Assembly: GCA_030390025.1 (NCBI GenBank)
Contig: CM059432.1
Coordinates: 24,616,001 to 24,680,000, forward strand
Direction: 5' to 3'
DNA length: 64,000 bases
Origin: Squalus acanthias
Lineage: Eukaryota
The position numbers and the translations under genes are program-made. Positions 12,788 through 64,000 of the stretch are shown piece by piece; position 1 is the first letter of the stretch; the number at the start of each line of letters is the position of its first letter. Under the pieces are notes generated by a model, which had not been told where the DNA came from, searched no databases, and saw only the letters and a list, made by a program, of their open reading frames with translations.

Positions 12788-14014
12788 ATATGTCCAAGTC
12801 AGTTGGCGTGTGACTTGGATGAGAACTTGGAGGTGATGGTGTCCCTGTGACTTTGCTGCTTTGAACTTTTCGGTGGTAGAGGCCACAGAGCAGGGAAGTG
12901 CTGTTGAAGTAACCTTGGTGAGTTATCTTTGGAGCTTCATGTCCCATGCACGCCCCCTTTCTAAGAAACAGTATATTTGCAGAGAACACGAGGACATTAT
13001 TTGTATGGTTAATACAATGTAATGCTTAAGACCTGTCATCTGCCCCCAACCCTTTGACCAAAAAAGACTTTCCCCAAAACACTGCAAAGGCTCTTCTCAT
13101 GTACTCTCAACTAAGGGTGTTATTGCGCAAAAGTTATGTTTTATTTCTTAGTTATAAGCACAAGGTCATCCTGCTGATCTAGTTAATTTTAATTTAGTTA
13201 TTTTCCAGTGCTGAAATATTAATTCATTTTATAGGGGCGTTGGTTTCATAATTTAATAGGTCGATTTCTTTAAACAGGATAGAAAATAAACTTGGTCGTT
13301 ACTGCATATAGTGAAAATGACCCATATGCAACATCTTCCTCACAAATGGATGCATTCATAAGAACATAAGAAATAGCAACAGGAGTAGGCCATTCGGCTC
13401 TTCGAGCCTGCTCCGCCATTCAATGAGATCATGGCTGATCTTCTGCCTCAACTCCATTCACCAGCCCTATCGCCATATCCCTTGATGCCCTTACTAGTCA
13501 GAAATCTATCGACTTCTGTTTTGAATATACCACATAATGCCTCCACAGCCCTCTGGGGTAGAGAATTCCAAAGATTCACCACCCTCTGTGTGAAGAAATT
13601 TCTTCTCATCTCAGTCCTGAATGGCCTACCCTTTATCCTGAGGCTGTGGCCCCTGGTTCTAGACTCCCCAGCCAAAGGAAACATTCTCCCAGCATCCACC
13701 CTATCAAGCCCTGTAATAATTTTGTATGCTTCAATGAGATCCCCTCTCATTCTTCTGAATTCAAGAGAATACAGGCCTAGTTTACTCAATCTCTTCTCAT
13801 ACGACAGTCCCTCCATCCCAGGAATCAATCTCGTGAACCTTTGTTGCACTCCCTCTATGGCAAGTATATCCTTCCTTTGTTAAGGAGACCAAAATTGTAC
13901 ACAGTACTCCAGGTGTGGTCTCACCAAGGCCCTATATAATTGGAGTAAGACTTCTTTACTCCTGTACTCAAATCCTCTTGTAATGAAGGCCAGCATACCA
14001 TTTTCCTTCCTAAT

Positions 14015-14758
14015 GGCCCAGAAATTGATCTCGCTCTGTTCCCGCGGGGGTAAGCCTTTCCCGCGATGTCTCACCTCGCTTATGCTTTTTCTGATCCAGC
14101 TCGCACGAAATTGATGTTCCAGACATCAGCTGTGCTGGGCTTGCGTATCCCAGCGGCGTAGTTAATTCGTGCGAGCTGTGGGATCACGTGACTCAGTTAG
14201 AGCCAATGGCAGCACACCATCTTCCATTCATAAGTCTCACAGCATGGCTGAGAGACTTATGAATCTTACACCCCCCCAAAATAACAGCTAAACCTCAATT
14301 AAATTTAAAAAAAAACCCATCACATTAATAAAATAAGTATAGTTAATTAAATTAACCATTTTAAATAAAAAATTAAATTTTTGAAAAAATTTAAAATCTT
14401 TTAAAAAGTTATAAAAATAAACTTACCTGTCTTTAAAGTCTATAAAAAAGATATACCTGTAAAAAAAAATTCAAAAAAATACTTAATTCACTACTTACCT
14501 TCTTAAAAGCGGGTCTTACTCCTCCTTTTTACATTTCCAAAATCTTCAGTACTTACCTGCGCGTCCAAAGCATGAAGTGCACAGCGTGCACGCAGCCTGT
14601 AGCGCGCACGCGATGCACCCAGGCCCCGCCCCCTTTTCGGAAGAGCAATTGCCGGTTTTCAGCGCATGCGCAGGGCATGCAGAAAACCGGCAATTGGAGT
14701 GGGAATACGCGAGAGTATGCAGTGCGTACTCTCGCGCACCGAGATCAATTTTCGGCCC
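14015..14758 (+). mobile_element. 744-bp PIF/Harbinger-type MITE, copy A
   Basis: 18-bp imperfect TIRs GGCCCAGAAATTGATCTC / GAGATCAATTTTCGGCCC, TSD AAT at 14012-14014 and 14759-14761. Confidence 0.9.
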
Positions 14759-14792
14759 AATGGCTTGCTGCAACTGCACATTCACTTTCAAT

Positions 14793-15536
14793 GGGCCGAA
14801 AATTGATCTCGGTGCGCGAGAGTACGCACTGCATACTCTCGCGTATTCCCACTCCAATTGCCGGTTTTCTGCATGCCCTGCGCATGCGCTGAAAACCGGC
14901 AATTGCTCTTCCGAAAAGGGGGCGGGGCCTGGGTGCATCGCGTGCGCGCTACAGGCTGCGTGCACGCTGTGCACTTCATGCTTTGGACGCGCAGGTAAGT
15001 ACTGAAGATTTTGGAAATGTAAAAAGGAGGAGTAAGACCCGCTTTTAAGAAGGTAAGTAGTGAATTAAGTATTTTTTTGAATTTTTTTTTACAGGTATAT
15101 CTTTTTTATAGACTTTAAAGACAGGTAAGTTTATTTTTATAACTTTTTAAAAGATTTTAAATTTTTTCAAAAATTTAATTTTTTATTTAAAATGGTTAAT
15201 TTAATTAACTATACTTATTTTATTAATGTGATGGGTTTTTTTTAAAATTTAATTGAGGTTTAGCTGTTATTTTGGGGGGGTGTAAGATTCATAAGTCTCT
15301 CAGCCATGCTGTGAGACTTATGAATGGAAGATGGTGTGCTGCCATTGGCTCTAACTGAGTCACGTGATCCCACAGCTCGCACGAATTAACTACGCCGCTG
15401 GGATACGCAAGCCCAGCACAGCTGATGTCTGGAACATCAATTTCGTGCGAGCTGGATCAGAAAAAGCATAAGCGAGGTGAGACATCGCGGGAAAGGCTTA
15501 CCCCCGCGGGAACAGAGCGAGATCAATTTCTGGGCC
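14793..15536 (-). mobile_element. 744-bp PIF/Harbinger-type MITE, copy B (inverted relative to A)
   Basis: Reverse complement of copy A, with its own TSD AAT at 14790-14792 and 15537-15539. Confidence 0.9.
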
Positions 15537-16473
15537 AATGACTCATGTACAAGGACACCCAGGTCCCTTTGAGCATCTGCATTCCCCAATCTTTCCCCAT
15601 TTAGGAAATACTCTGCCTCTCTGTTTTTTCTACCAAAGTGGATACCTTCACATTTATCCACATTATAATCCATCTGCCATGTTCTCGCCCACTCACTGAG
15701 CCTGTCGAGATCCCCCTGAAGCCTCTTCACATCCTCTTCACAACTGACACTGCCACCTAGCTTTGTATCATCAGCAAATTTGGAAATGTTACATTTAGTC
15801 CCCTCATCCAAATCATTGATATAGATCGTGAATAGCTGGGACCCAAGCACCGATCCTTGCAGTACCCCACTAGTCACAGCATGCCATTCTGAAAAAAGAC
15901 CCGTTTATCCCTACTCTTTGTTTTCTGTCTGTTAACCAATTCTCAATCCATGCTAGTATATTACCCCCAATTCCATGTGCCCTAATTTTGTTCACCAACC
16001 TCTTGTGTGGGACCTTATCAAAGGCCTTCTGAAAATCCAAATACACCACATCTACCGGTTCCCTTTTGTCTACTCCACTAGTTACATCCTCAAAGAACTC
16101 CAATAGGTTTGTCAAACAGGATTTCCCTTTCAAAAATCCATGTTGACTCTGTCCAATCTTATTATTAGTTTCTAAGTGCCAAGTTATTGCATCCTTTATA
16201 ATAGATTCCAGCATTTTCCCAACTACTGATGTGAGGCGAAGAGGTTTGTAGTTCCCCGTTTTCTCTTTCCCTTCTTTCTTAAGTAGCGGGGTTACATTTG
16301 TTATCCTCCAATCTGCAGGAACCGTTCCAGAATCTATAGAATTTTGGAAGATGACAACCAAATTCTCTATCAGTCAGCTCCCCACAGGGAACAGTTACTA
16401 AAACTGCACCAATAAAAAATTCCATCAAGTTCTGTTATTGGATATTATTATTGCAGAATTCTTTTCTGCAATA

Positions 16474-21306: not shown

Positions 21307-22043
21307 GGCCCGTATTTTCCGATCGGAGGCTTCCTGCGTGCGGAGGCCTCCGATCTGGAAAAAATCTACAGACTTACCTGAGGGCTCCCAAGGTGCATAT
21401 GCTTCCGTTCCTGGGCTTCTCCAAACTCGAAATCCCAGAGGCGCATACGATTCACAAGCATCCCTGGGATCACGTGGGCCATGGGGAGCCAATAGGAGAA
21501 GGGAATCTCCCTTCATACACTTGACAGATAGACCTGTCAAATATATGAATGGAGATCACTGAAAAACACTGTAAAACATTAAATACATTTTTTAAATCAC
21601 ATTTTTAAAATGAGTTCAAATTACAATAAATTAAATATTATAAACAAAAATTTTATTTTTTGAAAAAAATAATTAAAGTTTTTTACGGGGTTAAAAATAA
21701 ACTTACCTTTTCTAAAGTATTTTTAAATGATAAATGAGTGTAAATTTTTTTTTTTTACTTTTTTCAACTCTTATGCTGGTAAAAGCAGGCTTTACACCTG
21801 GTTTTACCAGGCATAAGATTTCTAAGGGTTTTCTGCGGGCAGAGGTTCTCCAGAAAGTGGAACTACCTGCCCACAGAGGCACTTCTCCAGGGCAGGCGTC
21901 CGATCTATCAAGAGCATTCTTGACAGATCGGAAATACCAGTATTCAGCGCAAGCGCTTGGCATGCCTGAAACCGGCATTTCCGATGTCCCTACGGGTGTG
22001 TACACAGAGCATACACACCCGTAGGCATCGGAATACACGGCCC
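21307..22043. mobile_element. 737-bp Harbinger-type MITE related to the 744-bp family
   Basis: TIRs GGCCCGTATTTTCCGAT / ATCGGAATACACGGCCC, flanks AAT / ATT. Shares GGGATCACGTG..GAGCCAAT and AAAAATAAACTTACCT with 14015-14758. Confidence 0.8.
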
Positions 22044-22710: not shown

Positions 22711-24641
22711 TCCCCCCCCCCACCCCCAGCAATTACCTGCGGGCCACTGCTGGCGAGACGGGCGGCTCGAAATTGGAACCAACAGAAGAGCAAGATGCCT
22801 GTGGAGGCGCGACAGGTGTTGGCAGCTTGCCCACATTTTTTTTGATGAGTTCCAAGGCCCAATTCGGAGCGGCTTTATGCGTCCTGGTTCGGGCGCACGT
22901 TGTAACTGCATCAGTACCTTGGAGCTCGAAACCGGGCGTCGACGAATTTTTACTCCACATGGTCGACTTACTCAATAAACCGTCAGGCAAGCTGCATCAG
23001 ATAACTTTTTGCAACACAAGAATTTTTAGTAGTCGGCTTTTTGGCTGAACAAGCCGATGCCTTTTCAATCGAAATAAACCTTTCTGCCACCTCAGGCAGT
23101 GATATTGTGTGGTAGAGGGAAAACAAAGACGTTTAACCCGAATAATCTAGCGCGAAACAACAGGGAGTGAAAAATGCTTATTCATTTTAGAACACAGCTC
23201 AAAGCTCAGTGCAAAATCCTCCTGTCTCTGTGCAGTTTTGACTCCTTTGAACCAGTTCACAGGAATTTTCACAAATATACAAGAACACAATTTTTTTAAA
23301 AAAGCAAAATCCACCATAAAAAAATTCCAAAGCCAAACATTCAATATTTAGACAAACTCAACTCATTAATTAGCAATCGCACTTTCCCACAAGGTGGCTG
23401 ATGTGGGAAATGGGAAACATATCACGCTGGTTCAGTAGGGGATGCTCTTCTGAAGTTTGAAGTGAGACACATTATTGGTGCAAAATAGAAGGAGCTCTAC
23501 TCTGGCCCCAACCATGCTGTACTTGATCTGGGAGTGCTTGATGCTGACATTGAGTGCCTGAACTGTTCCAGTTCCCAGCAATGAAATTCTTACTTTTTTA
23601 AACTGTATGTTAGTTAAAAAAAATGTAAAGAGATCCAATACTTTGCATTAATAAGTATGCATGAAATTCAAATGAAATAGCAAACCTCAAACACCAGTAA
23701 TTTGAAACAAAATAGCAGCCAGTCTTTCACTAATATTAACGAGCATGCAGATGTACTTAATGATTTGTGTTGCACAATGCTGTTATGCTGTGAGTTTTAT
23801 TTTGCTTTTTATTAAGTGTCAACTTTGCTCAGTTGATAGTACTCTTATCTCTGAACCTAGAAGTTGGTGGGTTCAAACTCCATTCTATAATTTAGCCACA
23901 TAACCTAGGTTGACAACAGGTGCAGCACTGAGAGAACGCTGTATTGCTGGGACACTGTTGTATGCAAATAACAACAATGACTGCAATTTATTGTATATCA
24001 AGTGCTTTAAAACATTATGAGGAACATAATAAGGGGCTATATAATGCCATTTCTTTCTTATTGTTGTGATTTTTCCTTTCAGGATTTCAGACTTCTGGGC
24101 CACCTTACTTTTCCATCAGGAGCCATTAGAAAACATTCCCAGGGGAAAAAATTTGTCCCCTTACTGCCTCCTGTTAGTGCCAGCAGATGGCGCTAACAGG
24201 GCACGAGAGCAGTATCGCCGGCGCGAGGCGAATCCCGCGCCGCATGCCAAATCCCGACCCCACCCCCCGTAGCGCCAACAGCAAGAGGTATCACCGGGAA
24301 TCTGAACGTCAGATGGATCGTGACGTCAGTGAGTGTACAACGCTCACTGGCCGCCCAATCTACAAAATTGATTCTCGCCATTTACCTTAGTGCCTGGAGT
24401 AAACACCGACAGGGAGAGCTGGTGTGAAGCACCAGGAAGCTAGCTCCAGGGATGTTATTTAAAGGGATCATCAGTAATCACTTGCAGCTGTCAGGTTAAT
24501 GCAATTTCAGTGGTTTCTTCACATACTGTAACAGTTTCATTCAGTAATTTCAAGGTTCTTTTGTATCAGGAGTCTTGTGGCAACTAAAAAGTAGCTACAT
24601 TTATTCTTCAAAGAATCAAACTGCTACACTTGGTAACATTA

Positions 24642-24915
24642 ATGGGGGCTGTACTGGCATGCCACCTCACCCTCCAGGATCTACAGTGAAGGGAGCGTAG
24701 GCAGCGAGAAGGACAGGAACATGTGCACAGAGAAATGAGGAGGGACATCAGGGCTCTCACCAGGAGGCCTTACCTTCCGAGGGTATTCCGAGAACACTTC
24801 TCCTACCTTCAATTAAGCGAGGAGCAGTATATTAGGCAACTCCGCCTCACCAAGGAGGTGGTCACAGAACTCTGCCATCTCCTCCAAACAGACCTCCAGC
24901 CTCACACCAGGATGA
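24642..24915 (+). pseudogene. Harbinger transposase N-terminus (HARBI1-like), catalytic DDE region deleted
   Basis: RPYLPRVFREHFSYLQLSEEQYIRQLRLTKEVVTELCHLLQTDLQP matches the N-terminal helical region of HARBI1-like transposases. Homology stops abruptly, and AATAAA follows at 25031. Confidence 0.8.
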
Positions 24916-25080
24916 CTAAAAGCCCAGATCCACTTTGCTCACCACATCCCCATCATTCCATCCCTCTTGCAGGCTGTATCACGCCGCAAAGCTGAAATGA
25001 CAGACACCACAAAAGAATGGTAAGTGAATTAATAAATTTATCAAAAATCAGTGATCACATTTTTACACCAAAGGTATTAA

Positions 25081-26944
25081 CTATTCACCCTTGTGCAATC
25101 CCTTAGTGCCTGTCCTTACAGTGCCTTTGCCTACTCTAGTACTCGTATGAAGTGTTGGCCCAGTGGTTGCAGCAGGGCTGGTGGAAGGTTGCTTAGTGTC
25201 CTTGCGGGAGACTTCAGATGGCCTTGCAGGACACCCTGGACCAGCTCTGGACCAGGAAGGCCTGGTTGTAGACTGCACCACCTCAGCATGGGTGGCAGTA
25301 GTCTGGGCTGGCTGGATGACAGGCAGCGACAAGGGCAGTGGCGGAGTGCCAGTGGTGAGAGCAGGAATGCTGTCATCCTGAGAGAGGACAGCAGGTTCCT
25401 GCTCCACTGACCCGATGCCACTCCCCCGGGGCAGCACCTCAGCATCCCTAGCAATCTGTTGGAGCACAGATTTCTGGCCTGCTGCGACACTGTGAAAGCC
25501 CCAGTCGACGGTGGTAGACCCAGCCACGATGGAAGCAGTCAGAGCTTGCGTGGCATCTAGCTGAGACTGCATGAGAGCAGTCTGAGATTGGATGCCATCA
25601 AGCATAGACTCCATTACAGCATTAAGACATTGTGTCGCTTCCGCAATGGAAGCTGTCAGATCGCCCATTACATGCCCAGGTCTGGGTCACCACAGTCTCT
25701 CTGGGAGTCTACCATCCTTTGCAGACTGAAAATGATGGGCTCCATGTTGTGCGCAGGTCCTTGTGCAATGTTGGAGGTGGACTCCTCCATGCTCCTTACC
25801 ATTGCCAGGAGGCTCTCGGGCACCTTTGCTATTGCACCTATCATTTCCATGTGCATGCCCATCACCCTGCTTCTAAAGGCCTCCCCATCGAGGTCCTCAT
25901 CTGAGTCCTGTGCAGCAGAACTCGCGCACAAACTCGCCCTCCAAGGAGCTGTCCCCAGAGCTACCCTTTCCCCCTGGCCTTGCTGCAGCCCACTTGTCCC
26001 CGGTGCCTCACCCTGTGCAGATCCAACTACTATACTAGCCTCCAAAGGACGCATACTGCCAGTATCTGAGCTGGTGCCTGCGGGTGAGAGATGCAGTGAC
26101 GCGGTGTGTTATTCCTCCTCCTCTTCTCCCACCTCACTCTCTATGGTGCCCTCAGGGACAGGCTGCTCAGGTGCTTGCTGATTATCTGAAATCATAAAGG
26201 CACAAGAGTCGGGTTCAGGTGAGGGGAGGGGGCAGGAAAGGAGAAATGCATGCATATACAGCATGATTAGCTGGGAAGTGCGAAAGGCATGTGGGGTGAG
26301 GGAGAAGTGGGATGTGAGAAGAACGAGTCAACGTCACCAGTGGCCGCGGCGCCCACCACCTGGTGCCCAATGATTTGCAGCACTCGATTCTCTGGTACAG
26401 ACAGTGGTTGGGTGTCGGCTTGTCCCACGCCTGTGCACTCCTGCTCCCTCCTGTTGTGCGCCACCTTGGCCTGCAAGAGAAAGGAAAGTATGTGAGTGAG
26501 TGAGTGTGGAGCAATGTATTTGGGTGATGTGCCTGCCATAGTTGAATAGCTGTCATTGTGTGCAAGGTGTGAGATGTGGGTGTGAGAGTTGATAAGTAGA
26601 GATTGTTGGTGGGTGTGTGCTGGGGGTTTGGTGCTTTGGGTAGTGTGTGAAGCTTGTGGTACAGATGGTCGTATGTAGCATTTGTTGAAGCATTCACTAA
26701 CCCTGACCACTCGAGTGAGGTCATTAAACTTCTTCCTGTACTGTGTGTGGGTCCTGGGGACCACAGTGCTGCCCGAGACGTGCTGCGCTACATCCCTCCA
26801 CATGGTGCAGAAGACTTGTGGTGAGGGCCTCCTGCCACTTGCCGGGTAGAACACTGCCCTCCGTCTCTCCACAGCGAAAACCAATGCCTCCAATGCTTCA
26901 TCAGAGAATCTGCGGTCTCTCTCCCTGGGGTGTGGACCTGCCAT
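25081..26944 (-). pseudogene. Harbinger Myb/SANT-like DNA-binding protein gene (NAIF1/MSANTD-like), spliced and disrupted
   Basis: Exon 1 26944-26702 (RFSDEALEALV...WRDVAQHVS....RTHTQYRKKFNDL). GT-AG intron 26701-26471. Exon 2 from 26470 (AKVAHNRREQECTGVG). Exon 3 from 26185 has a premature TAA near 26110 and a frameshift near 25668. Confidence 0.85.
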
Positions 26945-27589
26945 GAGCACACCTGGTTCAGTCCTCTGAGTCCTTCTCCTTGTTCTGCTTTTGCTTGCTG
27001 AGGCAACTGCACAACCAGCAGTGCTGAGAATGAGCTGCTGCAGCATCAATGAACCTCCCCTTTAAGTAGTGAAAAAAGCCTTTGGCAATGATGAGTTGCG
27101 ATTAGACTGCACCCGAAATTGGTCAAGCCTTTAAGGGTAACGCCAATGAGCTTGGGTTTTAAGACTTGATTTAAAATTATTTTATTGAGCAGTGAGGATG
27201 AATTTTGCGTGCAGTCTGAAGCATTTGCTCCTGGTGCTTATTCTCCAACTTTTCTACTGACACCGCCCATTCCTTGGCTATAACAAATTTTTAGCCCCCC
27301 GTGTCCTTTGTACTCTCCCCAACTACATGAAGAATCTTTTGTCCTATAAAATGTTGAATGGATAGTTGTTGATAAAGAGCAGACCTCCATTTTTGAACAG
27401 GTATGTGTACAATGTCAGGCAGAAATATCAACTAACAGGTATGAAGTGTAAAATTGATACAGTTTTGCACGGATCATAACAAATAGCAGGAAAGATTAAT
27501 TTAATTAGACAGGCTTGTTGTTTTATTTGCCCCAGTATTTTTAATTCCTATCTTTAGCTTTCTTGATACTAAACACCCATTCCAAGGTA

Positions 27590-28426: not shown

Positions 28427-29164
28427 TGGCCTAGAAATTTGATTGTGCCTGAATAAAGCCGGTGGCATGACCACGGGAAATTGGTCTGTCGGCCTCATTT
28501 GTTTCCGATCAATGAGCAGCGGGCAGCGGGCAGCGGGCAGCAGTCGCGTCCCCAGAGACGGCTCGCCGGTCTCGGGAAGCACGAAGATGGGCCAGCTCAG
28601 ACGCCGACCAAGGTGGTAAACAGAGTCTGGGCAGGGGTGGGGCAATCGTGAGGCGGGGAGCAGTGGCCAGCAGTGGCTGGAGAGTTTAATGTGAGGCCGA
28701 TCAAGCTCCCTTTATCGGATACAATAGCAAAAGACTGCGGATGCTGGAAATCTGAAGGGTCCTCGACCCGAAATGTTGACTCTGTTTCTCTTTCCTCGAT
28801 GCTGCCTGACCTGCTGAGTGTTTCCAACATTTACTGTTGTTATTCCCTTTATCGGACGTTGGTTTGGCCCCCAAACGCGTGCGAATACTGACCACAGCAT
28901 GTATGGCACATGCAGCAGTCAATCACTAAAGAATTTTGTAAAGGCGGCGTGAAATAGGCATCGGACCCCTATTTGCATTTGTAAAGTAATAACACCCGTT
29001 GCTGGCGTGAGCCCTGGATGCATACATAAGGAACCTTTACCAATATGGCGTGCAGCACACTTCCGGCGCAGAATCTGCGCGTGCACACCGCCTGCCATAT
29101 TGGGCACTTAGATGCCCATTTTGCGCCTGTAAAATGGGCGTGGCAGCAACAAATTTCAAGGCCC
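28427..29164. mobile_element. Harbinger-type MITE containing a retroposed insert
   Basis: TIRs GGCCTAGAAATTTG / CAAATTTCAAGGCCC. TSD not matching. Confidence 0.7.
28720..28843. mobile_element. 124-bp Penelope-derived insertion with internal inversion
   Basis: 13-bp TSD TCCCTTTATCGGA (28707-28719, 28844-28856). The two halves match opposite strands of 31741-31875. Confidence 0.8.
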
Positions 29165-30166: not shown

Positions 30167-31560
30167 GAACATAAGAATATAAGAAATAGGAGCAGGAGTA
30201 GGCCATACATAGGAACATAGGAACAGGAGTAGGCCATTCAGCCCCTCGAGCCTGGTCCACCATTCAATGAGATCACGGCTGATTTGCGACCTAACTCCAT
30301 ATACCCGCCATTGGCCTATATCCCTTAATACCATTGGTTAACAGAAAGCTATCAATCTCCAATTTATAATTAACAATTGATCTAGCATCAATTGCCGTTT
30401 GCGGAAGAGAGTTCCAAACTTCTACCACCCTTTGTGTGTAGAAGTGTTCCCTAATTTCACTCCTGAAAGGTCTGCCTCTAATTTTTAGACCATGCCCCCT
30501 AGTTCTAGAATCCCCAACCAATGGAAATAGTTTCTCTCTATCTACCCTATCTGTTCCCCTTAATATCTTGAAAACTTTGATCAGATCACCCCTTAACCTT
30601 CTAAATTCTAGGGAATACAACCCTAATTTGTATAATAAACATATGGGCCCTCGAGCCTGCTGCACCATTCAATATCATGGCTGAACTTTTATACCATTTC
30701 CATTTTCCCGCCCTATCCCCATATCCCTTGATTGCCTCAGTACCCCAAAATCTATCGATCTCAGTCTTGAATATACTCATCGACTTAGCATCCCCAGCCC
30801 TCTAGGGTAGAGAATTCCAAAGATTCAAAACCCTCTGAGAGAAGAAATTTCTCCTCATCTGTCTTAAATGGCCAACCCTTTATCCTGAGACTATGACCCC
30901 TGGTTCTAGACTCTCCAGCCAGGGGAAACATCCCCTCAGCATCTACCCTGTCAAGTCCTCTAAGAATGTTATACATTTCAACGAGATCACCTCTCATTTC
31001 TAAACACCAGTGAATATTGGCCCATTCTACTCAATGTCTCCTCATAGAACAGCCCACTCATCCCAGGAATCAATCTAGTGAACCTTGGTTGCACCCCTCT
31101 AAGGCAAGTATATCCTTCCTTAGGTAAGGAGACCAAAACTGTGTACAGTACTCCAGGTGTGGTCTCACTAAAGCCCTATATAATTGCAGCAAGACTTCCT
31201 TATTCTTATACTCCAACCCCCTTACAATAAAGGCTAACATACCATTTGGCTTCCCAATTGCTTGCTGTACCAGCATGTTAACTTTCTGTGATTCGTGTAC
31301 AAGGACACCCAAATCCCTCTGAATCCCAACATTTGCTATTCTTGCACCTTTTTAAAAAATATTCTGTTTTTCCATTCTTCCTACCAAAGTGGATAATTTC
31401 ACACTTCCCCACATTATACTCCATCTGCCACCTTCTTGCCCAATCACTTAACCGGCCTATATCCCTTTGCAGCCTCTGCATCCTCGTCACAGCTTACTTT
31501 CCCACCTAGCTTTGTATCATCAGCAAACGTGGATACATTACACTCGGCCCTCTCATCTAA
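30167..31560 (-). mobile_element. CR1 LINE fragment with a second CR1 3' end nested at about 30206-30636
   Basis: FADDTK, RPHLEYCTQFWSP, two separate RGDLI...WNSLP tails and two tandem 3' tails. Confidence 0.92.
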
Positions 31561-33246: not shown

Positions 33247-35040
33247 AGTTGTTTAAAAAGGGAGAAAGGGATAGATCGAATAATTACAGGCCAGTCAGCC
33301 TAGCCTCGGTGGAGGGCAAATTATTAGAAAAAATTCTGAGGGACAGTATTAATTGTCATTTAGAAAGGTGTGGATTAATCAAGGACAGTCAGCATGGAAT
33401 TTTTAAGGGAAGGTCGTGTCTGACTGATTTGATTGAATTTTTTGAGGAGGATCAATGAGGGTAGCGTATTTGATGTAGTCTACATGGATTTTAGCAAGGC
33501 TTTTGACAAGGTCCCACATGGCAGACTGGCCAGAAATGTAAAAGCCCATGGGATCCAAGGGAAAATTGCTACTTGGATCCAAAATTGGCTCAGTGGCAGG
33601 AAGCAAAGGGTAATGGTCGACGGGTGATTTTGTGACTGGAAGGTTGTTTCCAGTGTAGTTCCGCAGGGCTCAGTACTTGGTCCCATGCTTTTTGTGGTAA
33701 AAATCAATCATTTAGATGTCAATGTAGAGGGCATGATTAAGAAGTTTGCAGAAGATACAGAAATTGGCCGTGTGGTTGACAGTGAAGAAGAAAGCTGTAG
33801 ACTGGAGGATTACACAAATTAGGGTTGTATTCCCTAGAATTTAAAAGGCTAAGGGGTGATCTGATCGAAGTTTTCAGGAAATTAAGGGGAACAGATAGGG
33901 TAGATAGAGAGAAACTATTTCTGCTGGTTGGGGATTCTAGGGGGCATAGTCTAAAAATTAGAGCCAGATCTTTCAGGAGTGAAATTAGGAAACACGTCTA
34001 CACACAAAGGGTGGTAGAAGTTTGGAACTCTCTTCTGCAAACAGCAATTGATGCTAGATCAATTGTTAATTTTAAATCAGAGATTGATAGCTTTTTCTTA
34101 ACCAAAGGTATTAAGGGATATGGGCCAAAGTTAGGTCGCAGATCAGCCATGATCTCATCGAATGGCGGAATAGGCTCGAGGGGCTGAATGGCCTACTCCT
34201 GTTCCTGTGTTCCTATGTTCCAATGGACTGGTCAGGTGGGCAGAAACGTGGCAAATGGAATTAAATCCAGAGAAGTGTGAAGTAATGCATTTGGGGAGGG
34301 CTAACAAGGCAAGGGAATACACAATAAATGATAGGATACTGACAAGTGTAGAGGAATGGAGTACATGTCCACAGAACCCAGAAGGTAGCAGGACAGGTAG
34401 ATAAGGTGGTTAAGAAGGCATACGGGATACTTTCCTTTATTAGCCGAGGCATAGAATATAAGAGCAGGAAGGTTATGCTAGAACTGTGTAAAACACTAGT
34501 TAGGCCACAGCTATAGTACTGCGTACAGTTCTGGTCACCGCATTACAGGAAAGACGTGATTGCACTAGAGAGGGTACAGAGGAGATTTACAAGGATGTTG
34601 CCAGGACTGGAGAATTTTAGCTATGAGGAAAGATTGGATAGGTTGGGGTTGTTTTCTTTGGAACAGAGGAGGCTGAGGCGAGACTTAATTGAGGTGTATA
34701 ACATTATGAGGGGCCTAGATAGAGTGGATAGGAAGGACCTATTTCCCTTAGCAGAGAGGTCAATAACCAGGGGACATAGATTTAAAGTAATTGGTAGAAG
34801 GATTAGGGGGAGTTGAGGAGAACATTTTTCACCCAAATGCTGGTGGGAGTCTAGAACTCACTGCCTGAAAGGGTGGCAGAGGCAGAAACCCTAATCACAT
34901 TTAAGAAGTACTTGGCTCTGCACTTGAAGTGCTGTAACCTGCAAGGCTATGGACCAAGAACTGGAAAGTAGAATTAGGCTGGATAGCTCTTTTTCGGCCG
35001 ACACAGACACGATGGGCCGATTGGCCTCCTTCTGTGCTGT
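33247..35040 (+). mobile_element. CR1 LINE (RT to 3' tail) with a nested CR1 3' end at about 33805-34220
   Basis: NYRPVSLASV, YMDFSKAFDKVPH, PQGSVLGP, ALERVQRRFTRMLPG, and a TTCTATGA tail. Confidence 0.93.
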
Positions 35041-35194: not shown

Positions 35195-36087
35195 GGGGGA
35201 AAAATTCAGTTGGTTGCGCCTCCCGTTAGCGCCTTAAGAGGGCGCTAATGGGGCGCAAAGCATCTAGCGCCCAGGCGCGGCGAAGTTTGCGCCACTCGCG
35301 AAATTAACTAGACATTTTGCGGTGGCGCTAAACACTACCGCCACGATCTCCTGCGCCGGCAGATCATGACGTCACTCGAGTGTGCAACGCCGCGGTATCG
35401 CCCCGGAGCGGATATTGAGTGGCGCCCCCTGCCTTACCGCCTGACGCTAGCAACGACAGGTTGAGGGGAGCGTTCTGCAGTCATGAAGGGAAAGGGGGAG
35501 CGCTATTTAAAGGTGACCGCTTCCTGCCTTTTATTGTTGGTGCCATTTTTGAACTACGCATTCTGAGAGAGAGAGGGAGAGACTTCTGGAGAGATTCAAC
35601 GTTGTGTGAAGGAGTTTTGGGTACTGAGCAGCACCTTGCAGGTTCATTTTGATTTGCCTTTCCTTGTATCGATTTAGCAGAGACTGTGGGGGCTGCACTC
35701 TGAGCTCTTTGCCTGGTACTCTCCATTGTTCTTTCCAGCACATTTGATCTGCAGGTCTCTCCAGGCTGAGATTCAAAGCTGCAATGAGCAGGATGTGGAT
35801 GGAAAGCAAGATTAACCATCCCCTTTAAGAACTGGCCCGTGCCATTGTGCGTGTGTTCCATTGCTGACTGACATTACATGAGCTTCGCCAGCGCTCTGAG
35901 GTAGCGCCTCGCTCCTCGGCCTTTGTGCCTTAAGACAGGTGTGAAGCGCCTGATATAGCGCTGCAATCACCTCCAGGGGCGATAAAAGTCAAGTTTGCAG
36001 TCGGTGGCGATAATTAGCGACAGGCGCTAATCTTTGCGCCCGGCCGATTATTGCGCCCCAAATGGGGCGATACTGAATTTCTCCCCC
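35195..36087 (+). mobile_element. 893-bp Harbinger MITE, copy 1
   Basis: 16-bp TIRs GGGGGAAAAATTCAGT / ACTGAATTTCTCCCCC, TSD TAT. Inserted in a CR1 fragment (about 35085-37500). Confidence 0.92.
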
Positions 36088-56498: not shown

Positions 56499-56726
56499 AT
56501 GCGAGCGAGCATACACCAAGGTATTCTGAAATGCACTTGAGGTCTTAGTGCAAGACATGGAGAGAAGGAGAGACATCCTGTATCCGCAGGGGGCAGGAGG
56601 CACTCTAGACATATGCTCAGGAGGCAGTGGGAAGAAATAACAGCAGAGGTCACTGCCAGCAGTGTAGTTTCAAGAATATGGATGCAGTGCAGGAAGAAGT
56701 TTAGCAATCTGACACGAGTTGTCAAG
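56499..56726 (+). pseudogene. Harbinger Myb/SANT exon 1 remnant
   Basis: ALEVLVQDMERRRDILYPQG / RRQWEEITAEVTASSVVSRIWMQCRKKFSNLTRVVK across frameshifts. Donor is mutated to TTGAGT. Confidence 0.8.
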
Positions 56727-56849
56727 TTGAGTGAGCACAATCTTCCAATAGGATATCCTACCAACTGCACCACTAGCCTCATCCACTGCTCAATTCACTA
56801 CACCCCCATCAACCAACTACCAACAGCTCGCACACACTGGCAGCTATTC

Positions 56850-57005
56850 AACCTTGACAGCCACAGGCAATGCTGTCCTTGCCCTGCTGAAAGGCTGCAG
56901 TTGTGACTGCAGAAGTTGGCAGATATCAGTCACAACCTCTTTTGTGAAGTGAAGCATTAGTCCTCACTGAAGTTGAGGTAAGAGAATTGCTCCCTGAAGA
57001 TATGG
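56850..57005 (-). pseudogene. Harbinger transposase N-terminal remnant
   Basis: IFREQFSYLNFSED* / LHFTKEVVTDICQLLQSQLQPFSRARTALPVAVKV, homologous to 24770-24910. Confidence 0.8.
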
Positions 57006-57923: not shown

Positions 57924-58818
57924 GGGGGAAAAATTCAGTTGGTTGTGCCTCCCGTTAGCGCCTTAAGAGGGCGCTAATGGGGCGCAAAGCATCTAGCGCC
58001 CGGGCACGGCGATGTTTGTGCCGCTCGCGAAATTAACTAGACATTTTGCGGCGGCGCTAAACACTACCACCACGATCTCCTGCGCCGGCAGATCGTGACG
58101 TCAGTCGAGTGCGCAACGCCCCGGTATCGCCCCGGAGCGGATATTGAGTGGCGCCCCCTGCCTTACCGCCTGCCACTAGCAACGACAGGTTGAGGGGAGC
58201 GTTTTGCAGTCAGGAAGGGACTGGGGGAGCGCTATTTAAAGGCGACCGCTTCCTGCCTTTTATTGTTGGTGACATTTTTGAACCACGCATTCTGAGAGAG
58301 AGAGAGAGAGAGACTTCTGGAGAGATTCAACGCTGTGTGAAGGAGTTTTGGGTACAGAGCAACACTTTGCAGGTTCATTTTGATTTGCCCTTCCTTGTAT
58401 CGATTTGGAAGAGACTGTGGGGGCGGCACTCTGAGCTCTTTCCCTGGTACTCTCCATTGTTCTTTCCAGCAGATTTGATGTGCAGGGCTCTCCAGGCCGA
58501 GATTCAAGGCTGCAATGAGCAGGATGTGGATGGAAAGCAAGATCAACCCTCCCCTTTAAGAACTGGCCCGCGCCATTGTGTGTGTGTTCCATTGCTGACT
58601 GACATCACATGAGCTTCGCCAGCGCTCTGAGGTAGCGCCTCGCTCCTCGGCCTTTGCGCCTTAAGACAGGTGTGAAGCGCCTGATTTAGCGCCCCAATCA
58701 CCTCCAGGGGTGATAAAAGCCAAGTTTGCAGTCAGAGGCGATAATTAGCGCCAGGCGCTAATCTTTGTGCCCGGCCGATAATTGCCCCCCAAATGGGGCA
58801 ATACTGAATTTCTCCCCC
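57924..58818 (+). mobile_element. 895-bp Harbinger MITE, copy 2 of the 35195 family
   Basis: Same 16-bp TIRs, TSD CAG (57921-57923, 58819-58821), colinear with 35195-36087. Confidence 0.92.
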
Positions 58819-60250: not shown

Positions 60251-60564
60251 CTGTAAGGTGTCAGACTTGGCTCAGTGGTAGCACACTCATCTCTGAGTCA
60301 GGTGGTCATGGGTTCCAGCCCCACTTCAGAACCTTGAGCACATAATCGAGGCTGACACTTCAGTGCAGTACTGAGTGACTGCTGCACTGTCGGAGATGCC
60401 GTCTTTCAGATGAGACATTAAACCTGCTCTCTCAGGTGGACATAACAAATCCTATGGCACTGTTCAAAAAAACATAGAAACATAGAAGATAGGAGCAGGA
60501 GTAGGCCATTCGGCCCCTCGAGCCTGTTCCGCCATTTAATGAGATCATGGCTGATCATCCAAAT

Positions 60565-63400
60565 TCAGTACCCTGTCCCTGCTTTCTCCCCATATCCCTT
60601 GATCTCTTTAGTCTTAAGAAATATATCTAACTCCTTCTTGAATATATTTAATGAATTGGCCTCAACTGCCTTCTGTGGTAGAGAATTCCACAGGTTCACC
60701 ACTCTCTGGGTGAAGAAATTCCTCCTCATCTCAGTCCTAAATGGCTTACCCCTTATCCTTAGACTGTGACTCCTGGTTCTGGACTCCCCCGCCATCGGGA
60801 ACATCCTTCCTGCATCTAGTCTGTCTAGTCCTGTTAGAATTTTATAAGTTTCAATGAGATCCCCTCTCATTCTTCTAAACTCTAGCGAATATAAGCCTAA
60901 TCGACCCAATCTCTCTTCATACGTCATTCCTGCCATCCCAGGTATCAGTCTGGTGAATCTTTGCTGAACTCCCTCCATGGCAAGAACATCCTTCCTCAGA
61001 TAAGGCGACCAAAACTGCACACAATACTCAAGGTGTGGTCTCACCAAGGCCCTGTACAACTGCAGCAAGACATCCTTGCTCCTGTACTCGAATCCTCTCG
61101 CTATGAAGGCCAACATACCATTTGCCTTCTTAACCGTCTGCTGCACCTGCATGCTTACCTTCATCAACTGGTGCACAAGGACACCCAGGTCTCGCTGCAC
61201 TTCCCTTTTCCCAATCTATTGCCGTTCAGATAATAATCTGTCTTCCTGTTTTTGCCACCAAAGTGGATAACCGCGCATTTATCCATATTATACTGCATCT
61301 GCCATGCATCTGCCCAATCACCCAACCTGTCCAAATCATACTGGAGTTTTTCTGCATCCTCCTCACAGCACACACACACACCCAGCTTTGTGTCATCTGC
61401 AAACTTGGAGATATTACATCTAGTTCCCTCGTCTAGATCATTGATATATATTGTGAATAGCTGGGGTCCTAGCACCGATCCCTGCAGTACCCTACTAGTC
61501 ACTGCCTGCCACTTGGAAAAAGACCCGTTTATTCCAACTCTTTGCTTCCTGTCTGCCAACCAGTTCTCTATCCAAGTCAGTACCTTACCCCCAATCCCAT
61601 GTGCTTTAACTTTGCATGCTAATCTCTTATGCGGGACCTTATTGAAAGCCTTCTGAAAGTCCAAATACACCACATCCACTAGTTCTCCCTTATCAATTCT
61701 ACCAGTTACATCCTCAAAAAATTCCAGTAGATTAGTCAAGCATGATTTACCTTTTGTAAATCCATGTTGACTTTGTCCGATCCTGTCACTGTTTTCCAAG
61801 TGCTCTGCTATTACATCTTTTATTATGGACTCTAGCATTTTCCCCACTACCGATGTCAGGCTTACCAGTCTATAATTCCCCATTTTCTCTCTAACACCTT
61901 TTTTCAAAAGTGGGGTTACATTAGCTACCCTCCAATCCATGGGAACTGTTCCAGAGTCTATAGAATTTTGGAAGATGACTAGCAATGCATCTACTATTTC
62001 TAGGGCCACTTCCTTAAGTACCCTAGGATGTAGATTATCAGGCCCTGGGGATTTATCGGCCTTCAATCCCGTCAATTTCCCGAACACCATTTCCCTACAA
62101 ATACTGATTTCATTCAGTTCCTCCCTCTCATTAGACCCTATGTTCCCCGACATCTCTGGGAGGTTATTTGTGCCCTCCTTTGTGAAGACAGAACCAAAGT
62201 ATGTATTTAATTGGTTTCTCATTTCTTTGTTCCCCATTATAAATCCCCCTGATTCTGACTTTGCCAATCTTTTTCTCTTCTCATATCTATAGAAGCTTTT
62301 ACAGTTAGTTTTTATGTTCCCTGCAAACTCACTCTCATATTTTATTTCCCCCCTCTTAATTAATCCCTTTGTCCTCCTTTGCTGAATCCTAAACTGCTCC
62401 CAATCCTCAGGTTTGCTGCTTTTTCTGGCCAATTTATATCTCCTCTCCTTGGATCTTATGCTATCCCTAATTTCCCTTGTTAGCCACGGTTGAGTCACCT
62501 TTTTTGTTTTATTTTTATTCCAAACAGGGACGAACAAATTCTGTAATTCATCCATGCAATCTTTACATGTTTGCCATTGCCTATCCACCGTCAACCCTTT
62601 AAGTAACATTCCCCAATCCATCCTAGCCAACTTGCACCTCATACCATCGTCGTTTCCTTTATTTAAATTCAGGACCCTAGTCTCTGAGTCAACTACTTCA
62701 CTCTCCATCTTAATGAAGAATTCTATCATATTATGATTTCTCCTCCCCAAGGGGCCTCGCACAATAAGTTTGCTAATTAATCCTTTCTCATTACATAATA
62801 CCCAGTCTAAGATGGCCTGATCTCTAGTTGGTTCCTCGACATATTGGTCCAGGAAACCATCCCGTATACACTCTAGGAATTCCTCCTCCACAGTATTGTT
62901 ACTAATTTGGTTAGCCCAATCTATATGTAGATTAAAGTCACCCATGATAACTGCAGTGCCCTTATTGCACGCGTCTCTAATTTCCCATTTAATGCCATCC
63001 CTAACCTCAGCATTACTGTTTGGGGGTCTGTATACAACTCCCACTAACGTTTTCTGCCCCTTGGCATTTCTCAGCTCTACCCATACAGATTCCACATCAT
63101 CAGAGCTAATATCCTTCCTTACTATTGTGTTAATCTCCTCTTTAACCAGCAATGCTACCCCACCTCCTTTTCCTTTTTGCCTGTCCTTCCTGAATATTGA
63201 ATACCCCTGGATGTTGAATTCCCAGCCTTGGTCACCCTGGAGCCATGTCTCCGTAAACCCAATTATATCATATCCGTTTACATATATTTGCGCAGCTAAT
63301 TCATCCACCTTATTACGAATGCTCCTCGCATTAAGACAAAAAGCCTTCAGGCTTGTTTTTTTAACACTCTTAGTCCTTTTCGAATTATTATTTACTGTAA
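60565..63400 (-). pseudogene. CR1 ORF2, AP endonuclease plus reverse transcriptase, one frameshift near 61200 (start approximate)
   Basis: LNARSI, TETW, GVVYRPP, MGDFN, LDWVL (APE). YLDFQKAF, QGSVLGP, FADD (RT). The SDH motif reads RNH. Confidence 0.93.
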
Positions 63401-63526
63401 CCCTGTTTGATTTACACCCTTGATTTCTCTGCCTTCCACTTTTGCTTTTCTCCTTCCTGTCTTTTGTTTCTATCCTTGATTCCCTTTTCTCTGTCTCCCT
63501 GCACAGGTTTTCAACCCCCTGCCATT

Positions 63527-64000
63527 TTAGTTTAAACCCTCCCCAACAGCACCAGCAAACACTCCCCCTAGGACATCGGTCCCGGTCCTGCCCAGGTGCA
63601 AACCGTCCAGTTTGTACTGGTCCCACCTCCCCCAGAACCGGTTCCAATGTCCCAGGAATTTGAATCCCTCCCCCTTGCACCATTCCACTAGCCACGTATT
63701 CACCTGAAATATCTTTCTATTTCTACTCTGACTAGCACGTGGCACTGGTAGCAATCCTGAGATTACTACCTTTGAGGTCCTATTTTTTAATTTACCTCCT
63801 AACTCCCTATATTCAGCTTTTAGGACCTCATCCTGTTTTTTACCTATATTGTTGGTACCTATATGCACCACGACAACTGGCTGTTCACCCTCCCCCCTCC
63901 AGAATGCCCTGCAGCTGCCCCGAGACATCCTAGACCCTTGCACCAGGGAGGCAACATACCATCCTGGAGTCTCGTTTGCGGCCACAGAAACGCCTATCTA
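63527..64000 (-). pseudogene. CR1 ORF1 C-terminal SGNH/GDSL esterase domain, frameshifted, partial
   Basis: VVVVHIGTNNI (block III), VVISGLLPVP, DGLHL (block V). Confidence 0.88.

What the first reader, a model, noticed from the sequence alone, without database searches (positions are those of the whole stretch)
14012..15539. Twin inverted MITE insertions create a 1.5-kb near-perfect palindrome
Seen: two 744-bp elements (14015-14758, 14793-15536) are reverse complements. In the parts I compared by eye I saw one difference, in an A/T run near 14305/15245. They are separated by only 34 bp of host CR1, and each has its own AAT TSD. Removing both restores a continuous CR1 (...ttcctAATggcttgctgcaactgcacattcactttcAATgactcatg...). 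Both targets read AATGRCT. Known: 3-bp TSDs with short G-rich TIRs typify PIF/Harbinger, and long short-spacer palindromes are unstable and rare in vertebrate genomes. Inference: a very recent local hop by a possibly still-active Harbinger family, or homogenisation between the arms. The pair could also move as one composite element via its identical outer TIRs, and would give about 740 bp of dsRNA if transcribed.
Basis: partly seen in the sequence, partly recalled or inferred. Interest (0 to 1): 0.8.

Follow-up and report, generated by a model that had tools for sequence, protein, structure and literature searches.

The report
Twin Harbinger-type MITEs form palindrome
In this assembly, two nearly identical copies of a small non-coding jumping element sit 34 bases apart in opposite directions inside a retrotransposon of a likely shark or ray genome; the second copy likely hopped in next to the first, a known accident of young transposon families rather than a new kind of element.

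Summary
Confirmed in the assembly. Two 744-bp TIR elements (14015-14758, 14793-15536) are reverse complements with 1 mismatch. Each has its own AAT duplication, and removing both restores a collinear CR1. The 28-bp core spacer keeps host orientation, which excludes a fold-back artefact and a plain inversion-type aberrant transposition. No record spans the locus, so a haplotype mosaic stays open. Public contigs show a high-copy family in two organisms, absent from a third. The 316 bp tested carry no private change from the family majority, so arm identity needs no gene conversion. One mismatch dates to about 10^6 generations at a shark mutation rate (95% range 2x10^4 to 5x10^6), so current activity is not shown. 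AAT is not the canonical Harbinger TWA; it fits the ANT class. Best reading: double insertion, the second a local hop (0.5). Rivals: independent donors (0.27), sister-chromatid hybrid insertion plus flip (0.1), artefact (0.08), conversion (0.05). Composite movement and dsRNA are untested potentials. The scan noted other close or twin Harbinger pairs in this genome (unchecked), none for this sequence. Inverted dimers are known for P elements.

The parts
13357..14011 (-). Host CR1 LINE, 3' part
   Evidence: 79.7% to the long CR1 at 60.4-64 kb; 3-4 near-fixed differences from the family majority in 615 bp
14012..14014 (+). TSD 1, outer copy (AAT)
   Evidence: empty CR1 paralogs appear as loose ends at 14017 in 12 and 23 contigs of X1 and X3
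14015..14758 (+). Left MITE, 744 bp, non-coding, imperfect TIRs of about 19 bp (16 of 20 match)
   Evidence: the 3 long open frames scanned have no Pfam match above cut-off
14185..14207 (+). E-box and CCAAT motifs in the CpG-rich 5' part; likely remnant of an inward promoter (inferred)
   Evidence: motif scan with recalled consensus motifs, CpG O/E 0.83 against 0.40 for the window
14226..14264 (.). Internal hairpin 1 (mirror copy 15287-15325)
   Evidence: self-BLAST, DNA fold z = -9.85 for the whole element
14307..14307 (.). Only mismatch between the arms (partner position 15244)
14421..14558 (-). Three AGGTAAGT splice-donor-like motifs, all on the element's minus strand (14421-14428, 14493-14500, 14551-14558)
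   Evidence: use as donors not tested
14624..14736 (.). GC box, NRF1-like palindrome and hairpins 2 and 3 in the CpG-rich 3' part; likely remnant of the second promoter (inferred)
   Evidence: CpG O/E 1.13
14759..14761 (+). TSD 1, inner copy (AAT)
14762..14789 (-). 28-bp CR1 spacer in native orientation
   Evidence: forward scores 24-34 against 12-16 reversed in 4 of 4 paralogs tested
14790..14792 (+). TSD 2, inner copy (AAT); the close CR1 paralogs read AGT here, so this target is likely private to this copy
   Evidence: loose-end consensus of X1 and X3; 0 of 5 window paralogs have AAT here
14793..15536 (-). Right MITE, 744 bp, inverted, 3' ends of the two copies facing
15537..15539 (+). TSD 2, outer copy (AAT)
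15540..16361 (-). Host CR1 LINE, reverse-transcriptase part, 5'-truncated
   Evidence: RVT_1 matches E 1.8e-9 and 1.3e-16; 77.6% to the long CR1

Best explanation
Two copies of one high-copy, non-coding Harbinger-type (PHIS) MITE sit at two AAT targets 31 bp apart in a CR1, each with its own 3-bp duplication, and the second copy likely arrived by a local hop from the copy at this same locus. Shown: the two duplications, the unflipped spacer, the near-consensus state of the left copy's 5' part, and the family's abundance in organisms A and B. Inferred: a trans-acting transposase excised the element from one sister chromatid after replication and inserted it, by chance inverted, at the nearest good AWT site beside the copy on the other chromatid (or ahead of the fork), leaving both copies on one DNA molecule. 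The palindrome is a by-product. Its 34-bp loop would block cruciform extrusion and lower, but not remove, lagging-strand hairpin risk, which may be why it persists.
For: Four AAT triplets, all in + orientation although the copies are opposite, so they belong to the target and not to the element. The host CR1 is collinear across both junctions (4 of 5 paralogs gapless) and the spacer is unflipped (4 of 4). Under uniform independent insertion the expected genome-wide number of inverted pairs within 40 bp is about 0.0004-0.06 for 300-3000 copies in 3-5 Gb. A rough lower bracket from summed contig depth is 250-2700 copies (the tool warns this is no copy number). No other copy of the family lies in the other 62.5 kb. 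Both arms carry the same base at 14163, where the family is split 50-68%. [quoted passage not shown] P-element dimers form quickly during bursts, head-to-head in 8 of 85 strains (PMC5932611, passages).
Against: The family is young and abundant, so any two young copies may be this alike: the left copy shows no private change in 316 bp. At 10^4 copies chance gives 0.4-0.7 such pairs per genome, and more when summed over many families. mPing, the best-studied Harbinger MITE, transposes to unlinked sites (PMC7814626, passages), and its tightly linked pairs are ascribed to rising copy number (PMC7584900, passages). No read or contig spanning the pair was seen, and no genome-wide pair count could be made.
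Confidence: 0.5

Rival explanations
1. Two independent insertions from unrelated donors during one burst, drawn to two preferred YY-AWT-RR sites that happen to lie 31 bp apart.
For: The copy is at the family majority, so identity is expected. YYAWTRR occurs every 330 bp or so, a 19% chance of another within 35 bp. Harbinger3_DR has a strong palindromic target preference (PMC3016246). mPing goes to unlinked sites.
Against: Needs about 10^4 near-identical copies for an expectation near 0.5; at 300-3000 copies it is 0.0004-0.06.
Confidence: 0.27
2. One sister-chromatid aberrant transposition (hybrid element insertion) into a site 31 bp away made inverted twins around a flipped spacer; recombination between the arms later flipped the spacer back.
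For: That route gives identical, inverted copies with the same ends facing inward (PMC2775673, passages, plus my own working of the geometry), as seen here. All four triplets are AAT, so a re-flipped product looks the same as two insertions. An unchecked scan note (e1-8041953) reports flipped-middle Harbinger twins in this genome.
Against: The spacer is in host orientation, so a second event is required.
Confidence: 0.1
3. Assembly product: a mosaic of two haplotypes, one with the left and one with the right insertion, or a consensus error at a hairpin.
For: No spanning record was seen. The single mismatch lies at a homopolymer boundary and could be an error.
Against: A fold-back would mirror the flank; here the right flank continues the CR1 and each copy has a separate correct TSD. 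A mosaic would still need two insertions 31 bp apart.
Confidence: 0.08
4. Two older, diverged insertions made alike by gene conversion between the arms.
For: Close inverted repeats can pair; 234 nt around the centre fold at -149 kcal/mol as DNA.
Against: Conversion would spread private mutations to both arms, but none is seen in the 316 bp tested, while the host CR1 has 3-4 in 615 bp.
Confidence: 0.05

Closest known systems
TE dimers by double insertion, including inverted P-element and Rover tandems (McGurk and Barbash 2018, PMC5932611; passages read)
   Same: Two copies of one family side by side, formed in bursts, with target duplication kept; inverted forms rarer than direct ones.
   Different: There the copies usually share one target site; here two targets lie 31 bp apart, each duplicated, in a vertebrate Harbinger-type MITE.
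Tightly linked mPing pairs in rice (Chen et al. 2020, PMC7584900; passages read)
   Same: Same superfamily; linked copies excise more often, and outer ends likely moved one 8.1-kb megatransposon.
   Different: Those pairs are 1.9-9.6 kb apart, and mPing makes TWA duplications (recalled); no such movement is shown here.
Pangu (Repbase Harbinger2) group of PHIS (Han et al. 2015, PMC4482050, results part 1 read; equivalence from PMC12730594, passages)
   Same: ANT duplication; TIR of 11-40 bp starting with GG.
   Different: Defined by transposase phylogeny and a non-Myb second ORF, neither testable on a non-coding element; no vertebrate in that paper's species list.
Galileo twin copies at inversion breakpoints and hybrid element insertion (PMC2775673; passages read)
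   Same: Inverted, near-identical copies flanking a host segment.
   Different: There the segment is inverted and the TSDs are exchanged; here the segment is collinear.
Closely spaced inverted Alu pairs (Cook et al. 2011, PMC3215922; passages read)
   Same: Near-palindromes of two mobile elements; strongly depleted at spacers of 24 bp or less, yet head-to-head pairs are common at 24-36 bp.
   Different: Retrotransposons of about 300 bp at 65-85% identity, formed by target-primed reverse transcription; the arms here are 744 bp at 99.9%.

Membership tests
MITE (non-autonomous TIR element) | Short, TIRs, TSD, no transposase ORF | tested here: met
MITE (non-autonomous TIR element) | High copy number | tested here: met
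   Summed contig depth over the 5' part is 0.14-0.42 of that of the flanking CR1 in 3 of 4 runs and 0 in the fourth; inferred from related organisms' runs, not counted in this genome
Canonical PIF/Harbinger (PMC4482050) | TWA target duplication | tested here: not met
   AAT at 2 of 2 insertions
Canonical PIF/Harbinger (PMC4482050) | TIR under 60 bp starting with A or G | tested here: met
   about 19 bp, starts GG
Canonical PIF/Harbinger (PMC4482050) | Autonomous partner with DDE transposase and Myb/SANT ORF and matching ends | not testable with these tools
   No genome held; the Myb-bearing relic at 24.1-27.3 kb has different TIRs
Pangu / Harbinger2 | ANT duplication confirmed by paralogous empty sites | tested here: met
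   only 2 sites, both AAT
Pangu / Harbinger2 | Transposase clade and non-Myb second ORF of the partner | not testable with these tools
   Element is non-coding; an unchecked note (e1-9149845) reports a two-gene Harbinger with an AAT target in this genome, so ANT alone does not place it
NuwaI (Harbinger3_DR type) | CWG duplication | tested here: not met
   AAT
ISL2EU | 2-bp AT duplication in A|AT|T | tested here: not met
   Opposite copies both carry AAT on both sides and the empty sites read AATG; no shifted boundary fits both copies
Same-site double-insertion dimer (PMC5932611) | One target site shared at the junction | tested here: not met
   28 bp of host DNA between two separate targets
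Hybrid-element-insertion inversion | Flipped middle with exchanged TSDs | tested here: not met
   a re-flipped product cannot be told apart
Composite transposon that has moved | Inner DNA foreign to the site, one TSD around the whole unit | tested here: not met
   The spacer is native and collinear; the outer AATs come from two targets

The most novel reading that the evidence does not exclude
Shark Harbinger-type transposases preferentially capture a target about three helical turns from a resident element end, or join sister-chromatid ends, and so routinely build kilobase near-perfect palindromes that sharks tolerate for 10^4-10^6 generations. Such twins would be a countable class of spacer-flipping, jointly mobilisable units.
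Probability: 0.2. Interest if true: 0.6.

Novelty: new member of a known kind. Interest (0 to 1): 0.3.

Why it matters
As one locus it is an ordinary by-product of a transposon burst. Its value is as a test case. Counting such pairs would show whether a vertebrate Harbinger-type family hops locally, which mPing does not, and how long a 744-bp, 99.9% inverted repeat with a 34-bp loop survives in a slowly mutating vertebrate. That loop lies between the 12-bp spacer that stalls eukaryotic forks and the 52-bp spacer that does not (PMC7999016, passages).

Tried and rejected
No whole genome is held, so no genome-wide copy or pair count was possible. Run search: I first read the 0.23-0.34 word shares of organisms B-F as near-identical MITEs in many species, a hint of horizontal transfer. 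No RNA holder was listed, which is no evidence on expression. Locus genotyping failed: 32 of 138,217 pieces, 15 of 54 joints and 24 of 1,090 loose ends were shown, and none identifies this locus. The centre, the right arm and the right junction were not covered by any lay. Two shown joints place AAT or TAAT before this TIR at other CR1 positions, with only 20-21 letters on the short side; too weak to use. Exact 24-base TIR scan of metagenome contigs: 0 matches. Host exons: 138 of the 193 candidate ORFs of 75 aa or more, and the 150 nearest of 384 unmasked ORFs of 40-80 aa, gave only CR1 and Myb/SANT domains plus three weak below-cut-off hits; short exons or a long intron could be missed. Homologue search with the Myb ORF: none at E 0.001. 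Global alignment of element ends to the MITEs at 21307 and 28428 gave 53-61% against 53-55% for shuffles, so kinship rests on local BLAST pieces for 21307 only. Scan look-ups by sequence, near place, relatives and words found nothing for this arrangement. Literature: searches returned no listed paper on twin inverted Harbinger MITEs in sharks, judged from titles and abstract starts; supplements were not read, and subscription papers and Repbase are not held.

Full report
Observation. The finding is in the sequence as described. The arms 14015-14758 and 14793-15536 are each 744 bp and differ at one base, 14307/15244. They form the longest inverted repeat of the window. AAT flanks both sides of both copies on the + strand. 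Because the copies are opposite in orientation, the triplets must belong to the target. The modelled empty site aligns across both junctions with 5 CR1 paralogs of the window, 4 of them without a gap. The 28-bp core spacer scores 24-34 forward and 12-16 reversed against 4 of 4 paralogs tested. The TIR motif occurs 4 times against 0.07 expected.

Setting. The host is a 5'-truncated CR1 on the minus strand, 13357-16361. For the long CR1 ORF2 at 61.5-63.2 kb, the closest named relatives are from a sawshark (75%), a stingray (71%), a skate (66%) and a manta ray (51%), ahead of turtles, birds and frogs. An elasmobranch genome is therefore likely; the species was not sought. Harbinger elements were reported absent from sharks in PMC4482050 (passage) and from elephant shark in PMC9179366 (passages), but they are listed in the whale shark and grey reef shark assemblies (one passage each), so their presence is not new. 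No host exon was detected near the pair; this is a weak negative.

The element. It is non-coding with imperfect TIRs of about 19 bp starting GG. Both ends are CpG-rich (O/E 0.83 and 1.13 against 0.40 for the window) around an AT-rich middle. It holds three internal hairpins. A scan with recalled consensus motifs finds CCAAT and E-box motifs near the 5' end, a GC box and an NRF1-like palindrome near the 3' end, three AGGTAAGT motifs only on the minus strand, and AATAAA three times on the plus strand and never on the minus. I infer, as did an earlier scan note (e1-9149781), that it keeps the two inward-facing control regions of a convergent two-gene parent. A relic at 24.1-27.3 kb has a Myb/SANT ORF on the minus strand (E 2.3e-4, just under cut-off) and, by my recall only, a transposase-like start on the plus strand (no Pfam support). 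Its TIRs differ, so it is not the partner. AAT is not the TWA of canonical PIF/Harbinger nor the CWG of NuwaI. It fits the ANT of Pangu/Harbinger2, but that group is defined by proteins this element lacks. I file it as a PHIS (Harbinger-type) MITE of open subgroup.

Family age and size. Of 24 runs listed I laid 4 on 13400-14330. The 5' 316 bp of the element are covered in every bin in X1 and X3 (organism A) and X6 (organism B), at 0.14-0.42 of the CR1's summed depth. In X9 (organism D) the median depth is zero although the CR1 is abundant. Within those 316 bp only one place shows another letter at 10% or more: 14163, split 50-68%. The CR1 flank shows three places at 90% or more and one at about 74% in 615 bp. 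So the left copy equals the family majority where tested, with the caveat that only contigs 93% alike were counted. A rough lower bracket is 250-2700 copies; the tool warns that summed depth is no copy number, and A may not be the window's species. At 7e-10 per base per generation (PMC10587355, passages; another species) one mismatch gives about 9.6x10^5 generations (95% range 2.4x10^4 to 5.3x10^6); if it is an error, 0 to 3.5x10^6. The shared majority sequence in A and B also argues against a burst confined to one species. Present activity is not shown.

Targets. Site 1 (CT-AAT-GG) is shared with a CR1 subfamily and is empty in many paralogs (loose ends at 14017 in 12 and 23 contigs). Site 2 (TC-AAT-GA) reads AGT in those paralogs and is AAT in 0 of 5 window paralogs, so it is likely private to this copy and older than the insertion, since both duplicates read AAT. 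Both sites fit a palindromic YY-AWT-RR, which recurs about every 330 bp.

Mechanism. Two duplications on a collinear host need two integrations, or one aberrant event plus a flip. Under uniform independent insertion the expected number of inverted pairs within 40 bp is 0.0004-0.06 for 300-3000 copies and 0.4-0.7 for 10^4. This favours a local process modestly, not decisively. Local hopping is general among cut-and-paste elements and P-element dimers arise fast in bursts, but mPing goes to unlinked sites. Hybrid element insertion gives the same twin geometry with a flipped middle; a later flip would erase its mark. My odds: local hop 0.5, independent donors 0.27, hybrid insertion plus flip 0.1, artefact 0.08, conversion 0.05. 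Unchecked notes from this genome describe twin copies at a SINE hot spot, twins around a flipped 158-bp piece, and two insertions 8 bp apart near a MITE end. They are leads, not support.

Composite movement: the outer TIRs are identical (20 of 20) and linked mPings likely moved an 8.1-kb unit, so it is possible; but the pair did not arrive that way, since the spacer is native. dsRNA: the centre folds strongly, yet no transcript or host gene was found. The donor-bearing strands point outward from the centre and would not fold back. Inward transcripts from the outer ends meet AATAAA hexamers before the centre (inferred). Instability: long identical arms raise the risk, and spacers lower it; 12 bp stalled eukaryotic forks and 52 bp did not. 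Inverted Alu pairs are strongly depleted at 24 bp or less, but head-to-head pairs are common at 24-36 bp.

Verdict. A real and tidy case, in this assembly, of double insertion by a young, abundant Harbinger-type MITE. It is a new member of a known kind; interest 0.3. The bolder reading, a family-wide bias to land about 30 bp from a resident end and build long-lived palindromes, has probability about 0.2 and is directly testable with the genome and its long reads.

Noticed in passing
window 21307-22043: An older 737-bp MITE with similar ends and layout (74% over 140 bp and 80% over 44 bp to the twin), flanked by AAT on the left and ATT on the right: a centre-mismatched duplication like those in notes e1-9301492 and e1-9314684.
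   Followed up: partly
window 35195-36087 and 57924-58818: Two copies of another TIR family (about 894 bp, 94% identical, TIR starting with five G) with different 3-bp duplications, TAT and CAG.
   Followed up: partly
window 24142-27299: Internally deleted two-gene Harbinger-like relic: Myb/SANT ORF on the minus strand (26270-27061) and a short transposase-like start on the plus strand near 24640-24910 (likeness recalled, no Pfam support).
   Followed up: partly
window 56541-56903: Second Myb/SANT fragment (PF13873, E 4.8e-6).
   Followed up: no
window 28428-29164: 736-bp TIR element with GGCC-type ends and no clean duplication (AGT against ATG).
   Followed up: no
window 60446-64000: Long CR1 on the minus strand with an 850-aa endonuclease/RT frame and a GDSL esterase ORF1 fragment.
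   Followed up: partly
window 13400-14014, runs X1, X3, X6, X9: The host CR1 is itself close to a very abundant subfamily shared by organisms A, B and D (3-4 near-fixed differences in 615 bp), whereas the MITE is present in A and B but not D.
   Followed up: partly
window 30311-30636 and 33809-34128: Two CR1 3' fragments 93% complementary in inverted orientation about 3.2-3.4 kb apart.
   Followed up: no
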